Shown: positions 22,591 to 38,409, counted from the first letter of the stretch. The stretch: DNA of 41,010 bases from a virus (IMGVR_UViG_2529292921_000022), one strand, 5' to 3'. A program made the numbers and translations. Notes: generated by a model from the sequence alone, not told the origin.

Positions 22591-23154
22591 TTAAAGCTGC
22601 ATCAGCCTTTCCACCAGTTTATCTCTGCGAACAACAAACCAACCATTGGCTCTCGCCAGTTCCAGCCATGACTCAAGGGAAATAACAATATCATCATCCC
22701 GCAACTGAATTGTGGAAACAGTGACACCGCCTTGCTGATAACAGAGAACTCGCGTGTCGTAACTTTTCTGGCATGAAACTGGCGCTGACGGATCCTTTTG
22801 TCTGAAATAGCAGTCTTCCAGTCTTTCGAACACATCCCACGCCTGATCGGTTTCGAGCATTTTGGCATGACGGGCTGCGCCGCGTTCTGTCCAGAGGATG
22901 AGGGAGCGGGTTTTTGGAGAAATTTTCACCTCATTTTGCGACTCGTTTAAAACTAGTCGCAAATTTTTGAGCTCATCACCAACAGCTTTAAAGAAGTGTT
23001 TTCCCTCAATAAATCGAGATTTATTTTTATGGTGATTCTGCTGTATACGGATTGCTTCTGTTCCGTAAAGGCGGGCGAGTAACTCAGTTGTGATTACAGG
23101 AATCTGGTTATAAGTGACAGGGGAAAGGTTTTTGACAGCAACTTGAACAGTCAT
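22591..23154 (-). CDS. ORF6N / KilA-N domain protein (anti-repressor-like), first late gene
   Basis: 187 aa; N-terminal 'QIPVITTELLARLYGTE...NHHKNKSRFIEGKHFFK' resembles the ORF6N motif; ATG with SD 'gaggt'. Confidence 0.5.
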   Translation of the reverse strand: MTVQVAVKNLSPVTYNQIPVITTELLARLYGTEAIRIQQNHHKNKSRFIEGKHFFKAVGDELKNLRLVLNESQNEVKISPKTRSLILWTERGAARHAKMLETDQAWDVFERLEDCYFRQKDPSAPVSCQKSYDTRVLCYQQGGVTVSTIQLRDDDIVISLESWLELARANGWFVVRRDKLVERLMQL

Positions 23155-23316
23155 AACGACCTCGCGTTTCGATAATTTTTACCTCACCACCTTCAGGTTC
23201 CAATCATCGGGTGGCGAACTGTGCAGGGTTGGAACTACCGGTCGAAACATCCGGTGCACCTTTCGGTGCCCCCACACAGCCCGCCATAAATCGCGAATGT
23301 GACTGTGCTTAGCGCA

Positions 23317-23337
23317 TAAAAAAACCGCCAGCGCGGT
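23317..23337 (-). terminator. tR'-like terminator downstream of the late promoter
   Basis: Stem ccgcgctggcgg followed by a 7-nt U-run on the minus strand, about 75 nt downstream of the predicted start site. Confidence 0.5.
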
Positions 23338-23397
23338 ATGCACCGTTTCGATATCCGGGGTTCCAATCCCGACGCCAGATTTTGCTGGCGCTTCGGA

Positions 23398-23427
23398 AAT
23401 ATAGCCCCGGATAACAGATTGAGTCAA
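23398..23427 (-). promoter_or_regulatory. pR'-like late promoter
   Basis: Minus strand: -35 TTGACT (overlapping the Q stop), 18-bp spacer, -10 TATATT. Confidence 0.45.
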
Positions 23428-23978
23428 CAGACAGTTTTTAAATCCCCGGAAGAGAATGCATCACGCATCGGCAGATAGAGCATAAACTCTGCCATTTTCA
23501 ACCACGCATCTATGCGATTACGGCACGTGGCGTAACACCACTCAGGGTGTGAATCATTCAGCAATTCAGCCATTTTTCGCTTAGTCATCCCACTCCCTTC
23601 ATATCGTTGCTGGAGGATACAAATCAATCCTGGGTGTTCTGCCAGTACTTCGCCAATAACCCTGTCGATTATTAATGCCTCTGAATCGGTACAATGTGCC
23701 AGCCAGCTCTTTTGCTTGCCGTTAATCATACCCCGCAAAAAAGCCTCAAGTTCAGGTTTGTCCAGACCTGCTTTTTTCATCCTGCGGAGCGCCTCGTTAA
23801 TTTCCGTTTTTGTCAGCTTTTTAGAGGTCAACAACTGGTTGAACATATTCCCCGTCTTACCGCCACCAATATACGACCAGCGCCCCCACATACGCAGTTT
23901 TCCCTGAATCCAGACACTTTCCAGCGTGGTGAGACGAAGGTGTTCTCCGCTTTTTCCTGTATTCGTTGGGTAAATCAT
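23424..23978 (-). CDS. Late-gene antiterminator, Q-like (family uncertain)
   Basis: Located immediately upstream of the pR'-tR' pair; ATG at 23978 with SD 'aggaagg' overlapping the upstream stop (ATGA); ORF-track start at 24098 is probably too far upstream. Confidence 0.45.
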   Translation of the reverse strand: MIYPTNTGKSGEHLRLTTLESVWIQGKLRMWGRWSYIGGGKTGNMFNQLLTSKKLTKTEINEALRRMKKAGLDKPELEAFLRGMINGKQKSWLAHCTDSEALIIDRVIGEVLAEHPGLICILQQRYEGSGMTKRKMAELLNDSHPEWCYATCRNRIDAWLKMAEFMLYLPMRDAFSSGDLKTVC

Positions 23979-24265
23979 AAATAACCTTCCTTTCTCCAGA
24001 TTTCTTGTGTGCGAAAAACACCTTCTGCGTGCATCAGGCGTAATTCTTCTTTGGTGTAATCGCTGGTTTTTACCCGCCCGTCGATTAAATCGTGGCACGA
24101 GCTACAGGCAATCGCTGCCTGCATATCGTGTGGCTTTATCGCCGTTCCGCACGTTCCCGCCAGTCGGTAATGCGCCAGCACAGACGTTTCGGGATTGTGA
24201 TTGCAGTAGCCAGGGATTCTGACCTGGCACATCTGGCCCCGCGCCGCTTTACGTAAATCCACCAT
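23975..24265 (-). CDS. DUF1364/YbcO-like putative nuclease
   Basis: 96 aa with conserved Cys/His pattern (CQVRIPGYCNHNPE...ACSSCHD); nin-region position. Confidence 0.5.
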   Translation of the reverse strand: MVDLRKAARGQMCQVRIPGYCNHNPETSVLAHYRLAGTCGTAIKPHDMQAAIACSSCHDLIDGRVKTSDYTKEELRLMHAEGVFRTQEIWRKEGYL

Positions 24266-25321: not shown

Positions 25322-25345
25322 TCAGCGCGCAACAAAAAACCCGCC
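25322..25345 (-). terminator. Rho-independent terminator at the 3' end of the hok mRNA
   Basis: Stem aaacccgc/gcgggttt, loop cgaa, A-run on plus strand (U-run on minus). Confidence 0.5.
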
Positions 25346-25423
25346 GAAGCGGGTTTAGTGCGGGTGCGTTGAGGGTGCCTGACACATGAGAGGTGGCGAG
25401 GGATTTCTCCCCCGCCTGGTCTC

Positions 25424-25579
25424 TTACTCCTCAGGTTCGTAAGCTGTGAAGACAGCGACCTCCGTCTGGCCGGTTCGGATTCGTACCTCGCAGAGGTCCT
25501 TCCTCGTTACCAGTGCCGTCACTATGACGGTTAAACAGATGACAATCAGGGCGACTAACATCGCCTTTTGCTGCTTCAT
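25424..25579 (-). CDS. hok: Hok/Gef-family type I toxin
   Basis: 51-codon minus-strand ORF absent from the ORF track: MKQQKAMLVALIVICLTVIVTALVTRKDLCEVRIRTGQTEVAVFTAYEPEE; SD 'aaggagaag' matches the plasmid R1 hok leader as recalled. Confidence 0.8.
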   Translation of the reverse strand: MKQQKAMLVALIVICLTVIVTALVTRKDLCEVRIRTGQTEVAVFTAYEPEE

Positions 25580-25634
25580 AGCCTGCTTCTCCTTGCCTTT
25601 CGGTCCGTAAGAGGCTAATCTCTATGTGTCGCAT
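25431..25634 (-). CDS. mok: mok (modulator of killing) overlapping reading frame
   Basis: 67-aa ORF overlapping hok in another frame, starting upstream in the leader; the leader resembles the R1 mok region. Confidence 0.55.
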   Translation of the reverse strand: MRHIEISLLRTERQGEAGYEAAKGDVSRPDCHLFNRHSDGTGNEEGPLRGTNPNRPDGGRCLHSLRT

Positions 25635-25695
25635 AGATATGGCCTCAGATTAATGTTAAGCGTCTTGCAGGACGCGTAATGTTAACTGGGGCTTT
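25628..25695 (+). ncRNA. sok: Predicted Sok-like antisense RNA (approximate)
   Basis: Plus-strand promoter-like -35 TTGCCT / 17 bp / -10 TAATCT at 25593..25621, antisense to the mok translation initiation region; ends approximate. Confidence 0.35.
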
Positions 25696-25836
25696 TCTCT
25701 ATCTGCCTTTTGGTGTTCATGCCTGAGACAGATAGCCTCAAGCACCCGCAGTTATTCTACTTAACTAAGATTTCCCCGCAAACCGTTTTTGTCCGGCACA
25801 GTAAATATCCAACTAAACCAATGGCGTTCGCTGTAT

Positions 25837-26016
25837 TTACCGCCAGTATTCAATGCACATGACCGCCATGAACACCCCTAAAAAAAGGGCATTTATATGT
25901 CCAAACATTAATATCAAAACATCAATTTTTTCCATATACCTTGCTGTGAAGATGATGGGCATACATGATGCGAACAACCAGAACGCAACAAACAAAAACT
26001 GCAATGCGTTTTTCAT
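25837..26016 (-). CDS. Small hydrophobic two-helix membrane protein
   Basis: 59 aa from ATG at 26016 with SD 'aggggg'; flanked by AT-rich non-coding DNA. Confidence 0.4.
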   Translation of the reverse strand: MKNALQFLFVAFWLFASCMPIIFTARYMEKIDVLILMFGHINALFLGVFMAVMCIEYWR

Positions 26017-26136
26017 TATTCCCCCTACAATCAATGTGCAATAACATTTAAACACACCTCAATTTGGCCGGACATATAAATATCTAAACCAGAAAAAATC
26101 ACTTACATAGCGTTACAAACTCTTTAGTCTAAATAT

Positions 26137-32967: not shown

Positions 32968-33375
32968 ACCATTTATTGGATTAATTCAATATTCTTGCTG
33001 TAGGGGTATAGCCGAGGCCACCAAAGCCCGGAGGTGGTGAAATAAAACCGGGCACAATACGAAGGCGCATTTCCGGTATCCATAAAGAGTCGGTCTTGTC
33101 TGTTAAATTTAAATGGTGGGAGTGCGCCTCCGGTTGTAAATAACGACATTGCTGTGTCTAGTTTTTGGCGGCATCAGTTCTACTCCGTAGCTGCCCTGCC
33201 GCCCCTTTTTAAAGTGAATTTTGTGATGCGGTGAATGCGGCTAAGCGCACGCGGCGCAGTTAAAAGCATCAGTGTTATGGGGGGATTATCCGGCGTTAAT
33301 TGTTAACTGGTTAACGTCACCTGGAGGCACCAGGCACCGCATCGACAAAATTCATTTGTAAAAATGGAGATAATT

Positions 33376-34216: not shown

Positions 34217-37200
34217 ATGAGCACCGATAAACAAGTTTACCCACTGTATTACGAAGCAAAAAATGACAAAGTAAGAAAACGTCTCGGTATTAAAGGCGGT
34301 TTTTACTGGGCTGAAGCGAAAAAATTATCCATTGCCATCTCCCGTGGTGCTGTTGCGATTGACGATGCTGGCTACGATGAAGATGACTTCAAAAAACCTG
34401 TTCGCGTCAATTTGCCCGTTGTTGATGACCTCCCGCCAGAAGGCGTATTTGATACGGAATTCTGCAACCGTTACGAAAAAGGCGGGGAAGATGGCATCAC
34501 AATGGTATTTATCGCGCCCTCCCCCTCTGCGCAGGGCAAACCAGCCAGCACTGACAACACCAATGTTAATGGCGAAGACATGACGGAGATTGAGGAGAAT
34601 ATGCTACTCCCGATTTCTGGCCAGGAGCTGCCCATTCGCTGGCTTGCTCAACACGGCAGCGAAAAACCGGTAACGCACGTTTCACGCGACGAACTCCAGG
34701 CATTACACATTGCACGGGCTGAGGAACTACCAGCTGTTACTGCCCTGGCTGTTTCCCACAAAACCAGCCTGCTCGATCCGCTGGAAATTCGCGATCTCCA
34801 CAAACTGGTGCGTGATACTGACAGAGTTTTCCCTAATCCAGGCAATTCAAGCCTGGGGCTGATGACTGCTTTTTTCGAAGCATACATGGACGCAGACTAC
34901 ACCGATCGCGGTCTGCTGACAAAAGAGTGGATGAAAGGAAATCGTGTTTCACGCATCACGCGCACGGCTTCCGGCGCTAATGCTGGCGGCGGGAACCTCA
35001 CCGATCGCGGCGAAGGTTTCGTTCACGATCTGACGTCACTGGCGCGCGATGTAGCCACTGGCGTACTGGCCCGTTCAATGGACGTGGACATTTATAACCT
35101 TCATCCGGCACACGCTAAACGTGTCGAGGAAATTATCGCTGAAAATAAACCGCCCTTTTCTGTTTTCCGCGACAAATTCATCACCATGCCTGGCGGGCTG
35201 GATTATTCCCGTGCCATCGTGGTTGCGTCCGTAAAAGAAGCACCAATTGGGATCGAGGTTATCCCCGCACACGTCACTGAATATCTGAACAAAGTACTGA
35301 CTGAAACTGATCATGCCAACCCTGATCCAGAAATCGTGGATATTGCCTGCGGTCGTTCCTCTGCCCCGATGCCGCAGCGTGTAACAGAAGAAGAAAAACA
35401 GGATGATGAAGAAAAACTGCAACCATCTTGCGCAATGGCAGATGAACAGGCAACGGCTGAAACAGTGGAACCGGATGCAACTGAACATCATCAGGACACG
35501 CAGCCGCTGGATGCTCAGTCACAGGTAAATTCTGTTGATGCGAAATATCAGAAACTGCGGGCAGAACTCCATGAAGCCCGGAAAAACATTCCGCCCAAAA
35601 ATCCTGTCGATGCAGACAAATTACTGGCTGCCTCTCGCGGAGAATTTGTTGAAGGGATTAGCGACCCGAATGATCCGAAATGGGTTAAGGGGATCCAGAC
35701 CCGCGACTCTGTGTACCAGAATCAGCCAGAAACGGAACAGAACGCCCCAAATACGCAACAAAACGAGCCAGAAACGAAACAGCCTGAGCCAGTAGTGCAA
35801 CAACAGGAAACGGAGAAAGTTTGCACCGCCTGCGGTAAGGCTGGCGGCGGCAACTGTCCTGACTGTGGCGCGGTGATGGGCGACGCAACGTATCAGAAAA
35901 CCTTTAATGAAGAAAATCAGAATGAATATCAGGAAAAAGGTCTGGAGGAAATGGAAGGTGCTGAACATCCGCACAAGGAGAACGCTGGCAGCAATCCGCA
36001 TTGCGATTGCAGTGATGAAGCTGGTGAAGCGACAGCACCTGTAGTAACTGAAATCATGTGGCCGTCATATTTCGAGCCTGGCCGCTATGAAAACCTCCCG
36101 AACGAGGTTTATCACTCCGCCAACGGAATAAGCAGCACAATGCTGAAGGATGCCCGCATCAGCCTGATGTATTACCACGGACGGCACATTGCCGGAACTA
36201 TTCTGGGCGAGGAAAGTGATGCATTGCTGCGTGGGCGGATTATTCACAGCTATGTTCTGGAAACGGATAAATTCGCTGATGAGTATGCCATTCCGGTACC
36301 GGTTCCTGAATATGTGGTTACTACTTCTAACGAACTGATCGCCATCATTAAAAAACACAATGCCAGTCTGCCAGCACTGATGACACCAGAGCAGATGAAA
36401 GAGTGGATCGAAAGCTACAACAGCACTCTTATACAGCCACTGTCGGTAAGTACCGGGGCCGAAGAAACAGGCATCCTTTACGGTTCGCTTCCGGAGGAAT
36501 TCCGGCGTATTCCTGAGAGGGAAAAACACACAGCATCAGCAATGAAAGCCTGTATTAAAGAATACAACGCAAGCCTCCCTCCTCTGCTGAAAGCCAGTGG
36601 AACACGAGAGCAGCTCCTGGAGCAAATTGAAACTGTAGATCCAGAACTGGCAAAAAAAGAACGTGCTAAATCTTTGCCTTACAACATCAGTGGCACAAAA
36701 GAGCAATTAACCGAAATCGCCCGGAAAATTCGCCCGGAACTGGTAACACTGGAGGAGTGGCAAAAACGTCAGCAAGAAGAAAACGCCGGGAAAACGTTTA
36801 TCAGTCCGGATATGTATGAACAGGCAAAAAATATTCACGCAGCACTGCAAAACAATACTGATGCAGCAAGGTTACTCAACCACCCGGATCGCAAATCTGA
36901 AATCAGCTATTTCGGGTTTGATGAAGAAACCGGGCTGGAAATCAGGGTCCGTCCTGATATCGAAATCCGGCTGCCATACGAAAGCATTTGCGCCGACGTG
37001 AAGTCAGTCAGCCTCGGTTATGTGCGACAGGAACGACTGAAAGATCGCCTGCACCGTGAAATTATTGAGCGTGATTATCACCTCAGCGCAGCAATGTATT
37101 GCGATGTGGCAAACCTGGACAAATTTTTCTGGATCTTCGTCAACAAAGATGCTGGCTATCACTGGGTGGCCGTCGTGGAAGCCTCGCAGGAACTCCTGGA

Positions 37201-37345
37201 ACTTGGTCGACAGGAATATCGCCGGACGCTACGACAGATAAACGAAGCTCTGGAGACAAACAACTGGCCAGCACCGATTACCGAAAGTTATACCGACGAA
37301 TTAAACGACTTTGATCTTCGTCGTCTTGAAGCACTGAGCATCTGA
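34217..37345 (+). CDS. recE: RecE-like exonuclease VIII (C-terminal PD-(D/E)xK nuclease domain)
   Basis: 1042 aa; long N-terminal region with low-complexity Gln/Glu/Pro repeats and a CxxC...CxxC cluster; followed immediately by an annealing protein. Confidence 0.55.
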
Positions 37346-37356
37346 GGAAGGACACA

Positions 37357-38409
37357 ATGAACGAATTAACTCAACAAGAAAATATTAACTCTAATGTTGC
37401 GGTTTTCAGCCCTCAGTCCCTGGCTGCAATTCAGACATTTTCCCAGGTAATGGCTTCCGGCATGGCTACTGTACCGGAACACCTCCGGGGAAATCCATCA
37501 GACTGCATGGCCATCACCATGCAGGCGATGCAGTGGCAAATGAACCCTTACGCAGTAGCTCAGAAAACTTTCGTTGTGAATGGTGTGCTCGGATATGAAG
37601 CGCAACTGGTTAATGCCGTAATCAGTACTCGTGGGCCGCTAACCGGGCGTATTGAATATGACTGGTTCGGGCCGTGGGAAAAAATTATCGGGAAATTTGA
37701 AATCAGGAAGAACGACAAGGGGAAAGAATATCGTGTACCTGGCTGGAAGCTGGCCGATGAAAACGGGATCGGAGTTCGCGTCCAGGCAACACTACGCGGA
37801 GAGAGCAAGCCACGCGTACTGGAGTTACTTCTGGCGCAGGCCAGAACACGTAACTCAACGTTATGGGCCGATGATCCTCGCCAGCAGCTTGCCTATCTGG
37901 CACTGAAACGCTGGGCGCGCCTTTATTGCCCTGAAGTGATTCTTGGAGTGTACACCCGGGACGAACTGGACGAACCACAGGAAAAAATCATTAATCCGGT
38001 TCAGGAACATAAAAATACATCCGCCTGCCGTGCGGAACGTGAAACAACAATTATTGAGCAGGATGCCGGGGAAAACTGGATCAGGGCTTTCCGTGAACGT
38101 ATTGAGCAGGCACAAAGCACCGGAGAAACAACAGCACTTCGCCAGGAAGTGGAAGATCATAAAAATACACTTGGCGCTCTCTACACAGAACTTAAAGGAA
38201 AAGTGGTTCAGCGTCATCACCGTCTCAATGCTATTGCCCGTATTGAGAAGATGATAAATGACCTGCCTTCATCAGGTGATCCAGAAGCAGAACAAAAATT
38301 TATTGCTCTGGAAAATACGCTGAATGCTGCACGACCACATCTGGGAGAATTATATGAGGCGTATAAAACGACACTGACAGATATGAAACCAGAATATATC
38401 GGCTCCTGA
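37357..38409 (+). CDS. Single-strand annealing protein, RecT/Red-beta family
   Basis: 350 aa; motif 'STLWADDPRQQLAYLALKRWARLYCP' resembles the conserved RecT/Bet C-terminal core; paired with recE-like gene; not the K-12 RecT sequence as I recall it. Confidence 0.5.
   Translation: MNELTQQENINSNVAVFSPQSLAAIQTFSQVMASGMATVPEHLRGNPSDCMAITMQAMQWQMNPYAVAQKTFVVNGVLGYEAQLVNAVISTRGPLTGRIEYDWFGPWEKIIGKFEIRKNDKGKEYRVPGWKLADENGIGVRVQATLRGESKPRVLELLLAQARTRNSTLWADDPRQQLAYLALKRWARLYCPEVILGVYTRDELDEPQEKIINPVQEHKNTSACRAERETTIIEQDAGENWIRAFRERIEQAQSTGETTALRQEVEDHKNTLGALYTELKGKVVQRHHRLNAIARIEKMINDLPSSGDPEAEQKFIALENTLNAARPHLGELYEAYKTTLTDMKPEYIGS

What the first reader, a model, noticed from the sequence alone, without database searches (positions are those of the whole stretch)
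25322..25800. Intact hok/mok/sok-type type I toxin-antitoxin locus missed by the ORF track
A 51-codon ORF encodes a Hok/Gef-family toxin with the hydrophobic N-terminal helix and the conserved C-terminal ...CEVRIRTGQTEVAVFTAYEPEE. The listed 67-aa ORF is the overlapping mok frame. The leader parallels the R1 hok mRNA as I recall it, with a terminator at 25322..25345 and a plausible antisense sok promoter at 25593..25621. Chromosomal hok loci are often inactivated; this one appears complete.
Basis: partly seen in the sequence, partly recalled or inferred. Interest (0 to 1): 0.55.

Follow-up and report, generated by a model that had tools for sequence, protein, structure and literature searches.

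The report
Known prophage hok/sok toxin-antitoxin locus

Summary
A 51-codon ORF (25579..25424, minus strand) encodes a Hok/Gef toxin (Pfam 83.6 bits). The 67-aa ORF (25634..25431) is the overlapping mok frame. Only the terminator is misplaced: it is at 25356..25331, not 25322..25345.

All regulatory elements of the R1 hok/sok paradigm are present. The hok leader matches Rfam RF01794 (111 bits). The mRNA 5' end (tac) pairs with a 3' element (fbi) at probability about 0.99, and this helix shows compensatory changes across genera. An anti-SD box (ucb) sequesters the mok SD. A 69–75-nt antisense Sok RNA is inferred, with a 5' tail and a terminator hairpin.

The locus sits between the nin region and Q of a lambdoid prophage, in the same slot as hokD in K-12 Qin. 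K-12 hokD lacks the leader, mok and sok.

The exact Hok protein is on at least 998 public contigs under the name HokD. The 87%-identical hokW/sokW locus has been characterised experimentally.

Verdict: interpretation supported, already known, low interest. Expression, toxicity and biological role are inferred, not shown.

The parts
25754..25782 (-). Inferred hok/mok promoter: candidate -35 TTTGCG (25782..25777), 17-nt spacer, -10 TAGAAT (25759..25754)
   Evidence: Read from the sequence. The -10 aligns column for column with TATAAT of K-12 hokC and TATGAT of the R1-type plasmid locus. The consensus scan did not flag it. Inferred, not mapped.
25331..25747 (-). Inferred full-length hok mRNA, about 417 nt
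   Evidence: The 5' end is placed at the first position of the Rfam RF01794 match, 7 nt after the -10. The 3' end is placed at the terminator T tract. MFE is -168.7 kcal/mol, z = -7.6, with 0 of 100 shuffles as stable.
25736..25747 (-). tac (translational activator element), GGGUGCUUGAGG, at the mRNA 5' end
   Evidence: Pairs with 25374..25362 in the MFE structure, per-base probabilities 0.97-1.0. The element is conserved in 36 loci.
25686..25692 (-). ucb / anti-SD box (GCCCCAG)
   Evidence: In the full-length ensemble it pairs with the mok SD at mean probability 0.75. In 3'-shortened RNAs it pairs with tac at 0.2-0.72.
25643..25646 (-). mok Shine-Dalgarno GAGG, 8 nt upstream of the mok ATG
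   Evidence: Lies in invariant alignment columns across all leader-bearing loci. Present upstream of the mok ATG in the fetched loci.
25431..25634 (-). mok reading frame: 67 codons, +1 frame relative to hok, running through the hok SD and start
   Evidence: Its ATG aligns with the annotated mokW, mokC and Rac 442/2 mok starts. The frame differs among relatives, which fits translation mattering rather than the product (PMC9841398).
25611..25615 (-). dcb (GCCUC), which pairs with the mok SD region in the processed, open form
   Evidence: This is the helix in the Rfam consensus structure. SD-dcb pairing probability is 0 in the full-length RNA and up to 0.71 in 3'-shortened RNA.
25593..25621 (+). 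sok promoter: TTGCCT, 17-nt spacer, TAATCT
   Evidence: Read from the sequence. It is the positional homologue of the sokW -10 region, whose mutation relieved antitoxin activity (PMC8621323); the hexamer TAACCT is my reading of that paper's mutagenic primers. The same or a near-identical promoter (TTGCCT-17-TAAYCT or TTGACC-18-TAAYCT) is found in most non-hokC-type loci from Escherichia, Kluyvera and Photorhabdus; my pattern found none in the hokC-type loci.
25628..25702 (+). Inferred Sok antisense RNA, 69-75 nt: single-stranded 5' tail (25628..25640), terminator hairpin (25641..25693), then UUUUCUCU
   Evidence: The annotated sokW ends map to 25628 and 25696, and the K-12 sokC ends map to 25628 and 25702. 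The fold is -29.8 kcal/mol, z = -4.4. It overlaps the first 7 nt of mok and the mok SD. Transcript not observed.
25589..25594 (-). hok Shine-Dalgarno AAGGAG, 9 nt before the hok ATG
   Evidence: Read from the sequence. The GGAGAAG block is invariant in the alignment, including K-12 hokD and the R1-type locus.
25424..25579 (-). hok toxin gene, 51 codons plus stop (HokD-type)
   Evidence: The exact protein is on at least 998 contigs under the name HokD. Its DNA is 98.1% identical to K-12 hokD.
25438..25441 (-). TACG motif at the Tyr47 codon (candidate TadA A-to-I editing site, Tyr to Cys)
   Evidence: Read from the sequence. K-12 hokD mRNA is edited at the homologous TAC within TACG (PMC5630033). 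Not tested here.
25395..25416 (-). 3'-UTR stem-loop (9 bp, GAAA loop), expected to be the 3'-terminal hairpin of the processed mRNA
   Evidence: -18.8 kcal/mol, z = -3.8. It occupies the same position as the stem-loop after the stop codon in the R1-type locus. The role of that hairpin in R1 is described in PMC9841398.
25362..25374 (-). fbi (fold-back inhibition element), CCUCAACGCACCC
   Evidence: Forms a 12-bp helix with one bulge with the mRNA 5' end, mean probability 0.99. Compensatory changes occur in other genera.
25331..25356 (-). Intrinsic terminator of hok mRNA (8-bp stem, TTCG loop, T tract)
   Evidence: Found by the terminator scan. -15.7 kcal/mol, z = -4.5.

Best explanation
The region is a sequence-intact hok/mok/sok type I toxin-antitoxin module of the HokD/HokW clade. 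It is carried in the early-right arm of a lambdoid prophage, between the nin-region genes and rem/NinB-like/YbcO/Q.

Proposed mechanism, following the R1 paradigm. A weak promoter (-10 at 25759..25754) makes a roughly 417-nt mRNA. Its first 12 nt (tac) are locked to a 3' element (fbi), and the mok Shine-Dalgarno is held by an anti-SD box (ucb). In this state the full-length RNA can neither be translated nor be bound by Sok. Slow 3' trimming removes the terminator and fbi. The 5' end can then pair with ucb, and the mok SD moves into the SD/dcb target hairpin. Ribosomes translating mok run through the hok SD and start, allowing translation of the 51-aa membrane toxin.

A 69-75-nt unstable antisense RNA, Sok, is made from TTGCCT-17-TAATCT at 25593..25621. 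It covers the mok SD and start, blocks mok translation and so hok translation, and targets the duplex for RNase III.

What is shown here: the sequence elements, their homology, the predicted pairings and their covariation. What is inferred: transcription, processing, toxicity and the biological role. The role is probably prophage-linked, either addiction or helping lysis on induction as shown for hokW/sokW.
For: Toxin: Pfam HOK_GEF 83.6 bits; PHROG 251 at 113 bits; the exact protein is named HokD on at least 998 contigs.

Leader: Rfam RF01794 at 111.3 bits against a gathering score of 59, full model length 1-157, from GGGUGCUUGA to the hok AUG.

Homology: 86.9% identity over about 480 aligned nt to 933W hokW/mokW/sokW and 89.4% to the annotated mok/hok of phage Rac 442/2.

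Sok: the annotated ends of sokW and sokC map to 25628..25696/25702. The predicted RNA has a 5' tail plus a terminator hairpin, z = -4.4. The promoter is conserved across three genera.

Fold-back: tac-fbi pairing probability is 0.99 and the whole-mRNA z-score is -7.6. The helix recurs 45-56 nt after the stop codon in 34 loci. It shows compensatory changes (GGGUGC/GCACCC against GGGCGC/GCGCCC; GAGG/CCUC against GAGA/UCUC) and one G-U intermediate in L049.

Switch: mok SD-ucb pairing is 0.75 in the full-length RNA. After 3' shortening, pairing shifts towards tac-ucb (up to 0.72) and SD-dcb (up to 0.71). A 45-nt nascent RNA forms a local tac hairpin, as described for R1 (PMC9841398).

Experimental support in a homologue: HokW is toxic, sokW counteracts it partly via RNase III and Hfq, and mutating the sokW -10 relieves protection (PMC8621323).
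Against: No transcript, processing or toxicity data exist for this copy.

Both promoters match the sigma-70 consensus poorly (about 7 of 12), and the consensus scan did not flag them.

The predicted conformer populations of the shortened mRNA depend strongly on the assumed 3' end: tac-ucb ranges from 0.2 to 0.72. MFE folds cut at 25375 or 25380 prefer the local 5' hairpin.

Intact chromosomal hok loci (hokA of E. coli C, hokB of K-12, hokC of ECOR24) were reported not to mediate post-segregational killing; this is Pedersen and Gerdes 1999, as cited in bioRxiv 10.1101/2025.08.07.668861.

The NCBIfam Hok subfamily model scores below its cut-off, 49.1 against 73.
Confidence: 0.85

Rival explanations
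1. The locus is intact in sequence but physiologically silent. It is transcribed and carried along in the prophage, yet gives no killing, maintenance or lysis phenotype, like the chromosomal hok loci reported as inactive.
For: [quoted passage not shown] The promoters are weak by consensus.
Against: All regulatory elements are conserved, with compensatory changes, across genera. That implies selection on regulated expression. The 87%-identical hokW/sokW locus is functional and affects lysis timing and phage yield. 42 of 45 Hok homologues tested were toxic.
Confidence: 0.12
2. It is an orphan hok toxin gene without antisense control, like K-12 hokD next to relBE. On this view the 67-aa ORF and the 'sok promoter' are coincidental.
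For: K-12 hokD has 98.1% identical coding DNA and lacks mok, sok and the leader. The consensus scan does not flag the sok promoter.
Against: Unlike K-12 hokD, whose leader region is only 51.6% identical (chance level), the window has the complete leader (Rfam 111 bits). It also has the mok SD and ATG aligned with the annotated mokW and mokC, and a Sok hairpin and terminator aligned with the annotated sokW and sokC.
Confidence: 0.02
3. The 67-aa ORF encodes a functional protein of its own, rather than serving only to deliver ribosomes to hok.
For: It is a long open frame with its own SD. An exact copy and 68-aa relatives are called as genes in public assemblies, and one is named 'Modulator of killing'.
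Against: Among 33 related loci the mok start is conserved but the frame is not. 22 are in-frame N-terminal extensions of Hok, 9 use the +1 frame, and 2 end after 19 codons at a TGA overlapping the hok ATG. No Mok protein sequence is therefore conserved. There is no Pfam, NCBIfam or PHROG hit. For R1, only translation of mok up to the hok SD is needed (PMC9841398).
Confidence: 0.02

Closest known systems
hokW/mokW/sokW of Stx2 phage 933W / Sakai prophage Sp5 (AF125520; Takada et al. 2021, PMC8621323)
   Same: It belongs to the same clade: 86.9% DNA identity over about 480 aligned nt, and 91.6% in the leader. The order of elements is the same. The sok -35 is identical and the -10 differs by one base (TAATCT against TAACCT). 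The Sok 5' end falls at the homologous position, overlapping the mok start. It is also prophage-borne.
   Different: In 933W, mokW is an in-frame N-terminal extension of hokW; here mok is in the +1 frame because of a 2-nt deletion. The Hok C-terminus differs (FTAYEPEE against FVDYESEK). The 3' end diverges after the fbi, so the terminator is different. In 933W the locus lies near the right end of the phage record, beside a very large gene, and not in the nin-Q slot.
hokD (relF) of the E. coli K-12 Qin prophage
   Same: The Hok protein differs by one residue (V9 here, I9 in K-12). Coding DNA is 98.1% identical and the 3' UTR, including fbi and terminator, is 92.5% identical. The prophage slot is the same, upstream of rem and a Q-like antiterminator.
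   Different: K-12 hokD loses homology just upstream of the hok SD, where relE ends. It has no hok promoter, tac, ucb, mok or sok. The window carries the full-length form that K-12 hokD appears to be a 5'-truncated derivative of.
hok/mok/sok (parB) of plasmid R1 and other IncFII plasmids
   Same: The architecture and regulatory logic are the same: tac/fbi fold-back, ucb and dcb, mok-hok coupling, and an antisense Sok with a 5' tail and terminator hairpin. The conserved blocks are GCTTGAGGCT, AGCCCC, GAGGC, TAGCCTCTTAC and AAGGAGAAG.
   Different: The leader is only about 64% identical and the coding DNA about 53%; for comparison, the related HokW protein is 44% identical to R1 Hok (PMC8621323). 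R1 is a plasmid stabilisation locus with proven post-segregational killing. The reference used here is an IncFII plasmid whose Hok is identical to the R1 Hok sequence I supplied from memory.
hokC (gef)/mokC/sokC of E. coli K-12
   Same: The leader is 80.3% identical and the coding DNA 85.6%. The annotated sokC and mokC map onto the homologous window positions.
   Different: K-12 hokC has IS186 immediately downstream, and its 3' UTR and fbi are not conserved. Its leader lacks the 18-nt extension of the Sok-terminator hairpin seen in the window, Rac 442/2 and 933W loci. mokC is in frame with hokC.
mok/hok of Escherichia phage Rac from strain 442/2 (MN652886)
   Same: 89.4% identity. The +1-frame mok is the same type (68 aa against 67 aa here). 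The neighbours are the same: hok, rem, DUF1367, ybcO, Q.
   Different: The sok -35 variant is TTGACC with an 18-nt spacer, where the window has TTGCCT with 17 nt. This is the single-T indel visible in the alignment; the TTGACC-18 class is also seen in other loci.

Membership tests
[quoted passage not shown] | Small (about 50 aa) Hok/Gef toxin with an N-terminal hydrophobic helix and the conserved C-terminal region | tested here: met
   Pfam PF01848 at 83.6 bits against a cut-off of 22, covering profile positions 1-42 of 42. PHROG 251 at 113 bits. The hydrophobic stretch LVALIVICLTVIVTALV and Cys30 are read directly from the translation.
[quoted passage not shown] | Structured hok mRNA 5' leader | tested here: met
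   RF01794 at 111.3 bits against a gathering score of 59, full length, E about 1e-24. The model is in hok-sense orientation although it is named 'sok'.
[quoted passage not shown] | Overlapping mok frame with its own SD, translated through the hok translation initiation region | tested here: met
   GAGG, 8 nt, then ATG at 25634. The 67-codon frame ends 149 nt past the hok ATG.
[quoted passage not shown] | Antisense Sok gene complementary to the mok SD and start, with its own promoter and terminator hairpin | tested here: met
   Met at the sequence level. The promoter is at 25593..25621. The RNA at 25628..25696/25702 is homologous to the annotated sokW and sokC, with a hairpin plus U tract.
[quoted passage not shown] | Long-range 5'-3' fold-back (tac/fbi) that locks the full-length mRNA | tested here: met
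   A 12-bp helix between 25747..25736 and 25374..25362, probability 0.99. Compensatory changes appear in 34 related loci.
[quoted passage not shown] | Alternative pairings: ucb with the mok SD in the closed form, tac with ucb and SD with dcb in the open form | tested here: inconclusive
   The closed form is well supported (SD-ucb 0.75, SD-dcb 0.0). The open form does appear after in-silico 3' shortening, but its share ranges from 0.2 to 0.72 depending on the assumed end.
[quoted passage not shown] | Expression of Sok, 3' processing of hok mRNA, RNase III cleavage of the duplex, and toxicity of Hok | not testable with these tools
   These need Northern blots or RNA-seq and cloning. They have been shown for the homologous hokW/sokW (PMC8621323) and for R1 (PMC9841398).
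HokD as named by NCBI | Protein identity with sequences named HokD | tested here: met
   The exact 51-aa sequence is in the collection under the name 'type I toxin-antitoxin system toxin HokD'. RefSeq annotates hokD under the top-ranked E. coli matches, the best being 98.2% identical.
NCBIfam NF007279 (Hok family toxin subfamily) and NF007290 (HokA equivalog) | Score at or above the curated cut-off | tested here: not met
   49.1 against 73 bits, and 39.8 against 89 bits. Neither score reaches its cut-off, so I do not file the protein under these two models. This does not affect membership of the Pfam Hok/Gef family.

The most novel reading that the evidence does not exclude
In this prophage slot the module may act as an induction-coupled lysis helper rather than an addiction device. 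hok is co-directional with the early-right operon (CII, O, DnaC-like, nin, hok, Q), and sok is convergent to it. Antiterminated read-through after induction could therefore occlude the sok promoter, deplete the unstable Sok RNA and release Hok ahead of holin and endolysin. That would give a mechanism for the RecA-dependent loss of SokW and the early HokW production reported for Sp5. TadA editing of Tyr47 to Cys could add a further layer of control.
Probability: 0.2. Interest if true: 0.4.

Novelty: already known. Interest (0 to 1): 0.1.

Why it matters
Mostly as annotation hygiene. A 51-codon toxin gene, its antisense RNA and its mRNA elements are invisible to a 60-aa ORF track. One public assembly that carries this exact locus has the mok frame called as a gene at this position and no 51-aa hok call.

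The copy is also a clean full-length relative of K-12's 5'-truncated hokD. It would suit experiments on what prophage hok/sok modules do: prophage maintenance, lysis timing or phage exclusion. It does not reveal a new kind of system.

Tried and rejected
(1) The sigma-70 consensus scan flagged neither the hok nor the sok promoter, since both match only about 7 of 12 positions. Support for them therefore rests on positional homology with annotated or mutated promoters, not on consensus strength.

(2) The Rfam hit is named 'sok antitoxin', so I first took it as evidence for the antisense gene. The alignment shows the model lies in the hok-sense orientation, running from tac to the hok AUG. I therefore count it only as evidence for the leader.

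(3) A sub-threshold isrK hit on the hok 3' UTR (29.8 against 50 bits) was set aside as hairpin and terminator resemblance.

(4) The NCBIfam Hok and HokA models fall below their cut-offs, so I do not use them for membership.

(5) MFE folds of mRNAs cut at 25375 or 25380 gave the local 5' hairpin and not the tac-ucb stem. Ensemble probabilities show mixed conformers. The open form is therefore reported as plausible, not demonstrated.

(6) I did not run the count of structure pairs on the tac/fbi mini-alignment. The Photorhabdus-type helix lacks the bulge and sits one column out of register in an ungapped alignment. The per-locus duplex predictions and the haplotype table were used in its place.

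(7) I looked by eye for a YUNR U-turn motif in the Sok target loop and could not establish one, so no claim is made.

(8) Nine of the 45 loci with full flanks failed my strict tac pattern. Some of these may simply have divergent leaders.

Full report
**Observation.** On the minus strand, a 51-codon ORF at 25579..25424 encodes MKQQKAMLVALIVICLTVIVTALVTRKDLCEVRIRTGQTEVAVFTAYEPEE. A 67-codon ORF at 25634..25431 overlaps it in the +1 frame. The short ORF is an unambiguous Hok/Gef toxin. It scores 83.6 bits against Pfam PF01848 (cut-off 22, E = 7e-24, full profile) and 113 bits against PHROG 251 'MokW-like host killing'. The hairpin is at 25356..25337 with a T tract to about 25331, not at 25322..25345. 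The 51-aa ORF was 'missed' only because it falls below a 60-aa listing threshold.

**Identity.** A 651-nt query spanning the locus matches 4938 of 5426 complete E. coli genomes. In 1138 of them one place covers at least 80% of the query. The best identity is 98.2%, and the feature annotated under all the listed top matches is 'hokD: type I toxin-antitoxin system toxin HokD'. It also matches 78 phage records. Among these, phage 933W carries depositor annotations for mokW, hokW and the SokW antisense RNA, and phage Rac from strain 442/2 carries annotated mok and hok. The exact Hok protein is present on at least 998 public contigs under the name HokD. The exact 67-aa mok product occurs in one public assembly, and a 68-aa relative is named 'Modulator of killing'. 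The exact 501-nt locus is present in GCA_053258415.1.

**Anatomy.** Reading 5' to 3' on the minus strand:
- A -10 TAGAAT at 25759..25754 aligns with the -10 of K-12 hokC and of an R1-type plasmid locus. A candidate -35, TTTGCG, lies 17 nt upstream.
- The inferred mRNA start is G25747, which is also the first position of the Rfam match.
- tac: GGGUGCUUGAGG, 25747..25736.
- A 5' hairpin spans 25735..25699.
- ucb: GCCCCAG, 25692..25686.
- A long hairpin that is the complement of the Sok terminator.
- mok SD: GAGG, 25646..25643, followed by the mok ATG at 25634.
- dcb: GCCUC, 25615..25611.
- hok SD: AAGGAG, 25594..25589, followed by the hok ATG at 25579 and the stop at 25426..25424.
- A 9-bp stem-loop at 25416..25395.
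- fbi: CCUCAACGCACCC, 25374..25362.
- The terminator at 25356..25331.

On the plus strand, the annotated ends of sokW map to 25628 and 25696, and those of K-12 sokC map to 25628 and 25702. The inferred Sok RNA is therefore 69-75 nt. It starts 6 nt after the -10 and overlaps the first 7 nt of mok. It has a 13-nt single-stranded tail and then a long hairpin followed by UUUUCUCU (-29.8 kcal/mol, z = -4.4).

**A caution on Rfam.** RF01794 is called 'sok antitoxin' and scores 111.3 bits against a gathering score of 59. However, it matches the hok-sense strand, from GGGUGCUUGA to the hok AUG. It therefore documents the hok mRNA leader and not the antisense gene. Evidence for Sok comes from homology with annotated Sok RNAs, from the predicted structure, and from conservation of its promoter.

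**Structure tests.**
- The 417-nt model mRNA folds to -168.7 kcal/mol, with z = -7.6 and 0 of 100 shuffles as stable.
- In the minimum-energy structure, nt 1-12 pair with 25374..25362, about 370 nt away. Per-base probabilities are 0.97-1.0 and the mean is 0.99.
- In the same ensemble the mok SD pairs with ucb at 0.75 and with dcb at 0.0.
- When the 3' end is shortened past the fbi, pairing shifts towards tac-ucb (0.2-0.72) and SD-dcb (0.11-0.71). The share depends on the assumed end.
- A 45-nt nascent RNA forms a local hairpin that sequesters tac.

These are the closed, open and metastable conformers described for R1 (PMC9841398). The closed form is solid. The open form is plausible but not pinned down, because the processing site is unknown.

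**Comparative support.** A scan of one genome per species returned 59 Hok loci from Escherichia, Shigella, Kluyvera, Photorhabdus, Pantoea, Citrobacter, Erwinia and other genera. Of the 45 with full flanks, 36 have the tac motif 137-166 nt upstream of the hok ATG. Thirty-four of those have the complementary fbi 45-56 nt after the stop codon. The helix covaries:
- GGGUGC/GCACCC in Escherichia and Kluyvera against GGGCGC/GCGCCC in Photorhabdus and Pantoea, with a G-U intermediate in L049.
- GAGG/CCUC against GAGA/UCUC.

The two loci that lack the fbi are a K-12-type hokC with IS186 downstream and a frameshifted Shigella copy. The sok promoter recurs as TTGCCT-17-TAAYCT or TTGACC-18-TAAYCT in Escherichia, Kluyvera and Photorhabdus. 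An intact locus is thus the norm rather than an exception.

**mok.** The mok start codon and SD are conserved, but the frame is not. Among 33 loci, 22 have mok in frame with hok (an N-terminally extended Hok, as in mokW and mokC). Nine use the +1 frame, including the window and Rac 442/2. Two end after 19 codons at a TGA overlapping the hok ATG. A locus outside that set, E. coli MSB1_4I, also has a 19-codon mok; it is the closest relative among complete E. coli genomes, at 98.2% identity. This fits the R1 result that mok must be translated up to the hok SD while its product is irrelevant (PMC9841398). In the window, mok reads 149 nt past the hok ATG, so the coupling requirement is met.

**Context.** The window is a lambdoid, Rac-like prophage.
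- The integrase (39202..40278) lies next to ryeA/sdsR.
- RecE/RecT-like genes and a RalA sRNA are present.
- A repressor lies on the plus strand.
- On the minus strand, in order: CII-like, O-like, DnaC-like, nin-region genes, hok, an 83-aa ORF the same length as rem of K-12 Qin and in the same position (PHROG 1813), NinB-like/DUF1367, YbcO, Q, holin, endolysin and terminase.

This is the slot occupied by hokD in K-12 Qin (relB-relE-hokD-rem-ydfU-Q-like) and by hok in phage Rac 442/2. K-12 hokD shares 98.1% of the coding DNA and 92.5% of the 3' UTR, including fbi and terminator. Homology stops just upstream of the hok SD, where relE ends, and the leader region is only 51.6% identical. The window therefore carries the full-length form, and K-12 hokD looks like a 5'-truncated derivative of it.

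**Mechanism and function.**
- Shown here: the sequence elements, their homology, the predicted pairings and their covariation.
- Inferred from the family: transcription from both promoters, slow 3' trimming, refolding, mok-coupled hok translation, Sok binding and RNase III decay, and membrane toxicity.
- Experimental support in a close homologue: HokW is toxic and localises to the inner membrane. sokW counteracts it in a way that partly depends on RNase III and Hfq. Mutating the sokW -10 relieves protection. Prophage induction depletes SokW, induces HokW before endolysin, and doubles phage release (PMC8621323).

The biological role of this copy is open. Candidates are prophage addiction, a lysis helper, or phage exclusion. 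Intact chromosomal hok loci were reported not to give post-segregational killing (cited). Hok genes are about four-fold enriched in prophages (bioRxiv 10.1101/2025.08.07.668861).

**Verdict.** The system, the clade, the protein and even the exact DNA are already in public databases under the correct name, and a close homologue has been characterised. Novelty is 'already known' and interest is low (0.1). The least ordinary reading not excluded is that induction-driven read-through of the early-right operon silences the convergent sok promoter and so times Hok release. This is untested.

Noticed in passing
window 25431..25634 and loci L008-L056: The mok reading frame is not conserved among related hok loci. 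Of 33 loci, 22 have mok in frame with hok, 9 use the +1 frame (including the window), and 2 end after 19 codons at a TGA overlapping the hok ATG. The closest complete-genome relative (MSB1_4I, 98.2% identical, not in that set) also has a 19-codon mok. It carries the same 2-nt deletion just after the mok ATG as the window, and differs from the window by a single T in the leader.
   Followed up: yes
window 25438..25441 (minus strand): The Tyr47 codon of hok is TAC within TACG, the TadA recognition motif. K-12 hokD mRNA is A-to-I edited at the homologous Tyr, recoding it to Cys (PMC5630033). Editing of this copy would create a second cysteine.
   Followed up: partly
window 25373..25378 (minus strand): The window has a C at 25375 where relatives have T. 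This creates a second GCACCC just upstream of the fbi and gives the mRNA 5' end an alternative 10-bp register (duplex -23.0 kcal/mol). The global fold still uses the canonical fbi.
   Followed up: partly
window 25574..25747: Rfam family RF01794, named 'sok antitoxin (CssrC)', is modelled in the hok-sense orientation: it starts at the hok mRNA 5' end and ends at the hok AUG. A hit therefore marks the hok leader and not the Sok gene or its strand.
   Followed up: yes
window 25837..26055 (minus strand): A 72-aa, very hydrophobic ORF lies in an AT-rich stretch just upstream of the hok promoter. The exact protein occurs on at least 1000 public contigs as 'hypothetical' or 'membrane protein'. It has no Pfam, PHROG or NCBIfam match, and no CDS is annotated in the corresponding stretch of the RefSeq record I examined (MSB1_4I).
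   Followed up: partly
window 38666..38844 (minus strand): A full-length RalA sRNA (Rfam 220 bits), the antitoxin of the RalR/RalA type I system of Rac prophage. The prophage therefore carries a second RNA-antitoxin module near its integrase end, next to RecE/RecT-like genes (34217..38409).
   Followed up: no
window 23207..23391 (minus strand): Adjacent Rfam hits to isrK (72 bits) and C4 antisense RNA (73 bits) lie between the Q antiterminator (23424..24098) and an ORF6N anti-repressor gene (22591..23154). From memory, this resembles the isrK/anti-Q arrangement of Salmonella Gifsy-1.
   Followed up: no
window 33153..33204 (+) and 40406..40549: A DicF sRNA hit lies in the immunity and early-left region. 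The ryeA/sdsR (SraC/SdsR) pair lies immediately outside the integrase gene (39202..40278), which suggests the prophage is integrated at the ryeA/ryeB locus.
   Followed up: no
L066 (GCA_053258415.1, contig JBNDDL010000206.1): This public draft assembly contains the exact 501-nt locus. The gene called at this position is the 67-aa mok frame, and no 51-aa hok gene is listed. This illustrates how gene callers can mis-annotate the module.
   Followed up: partly
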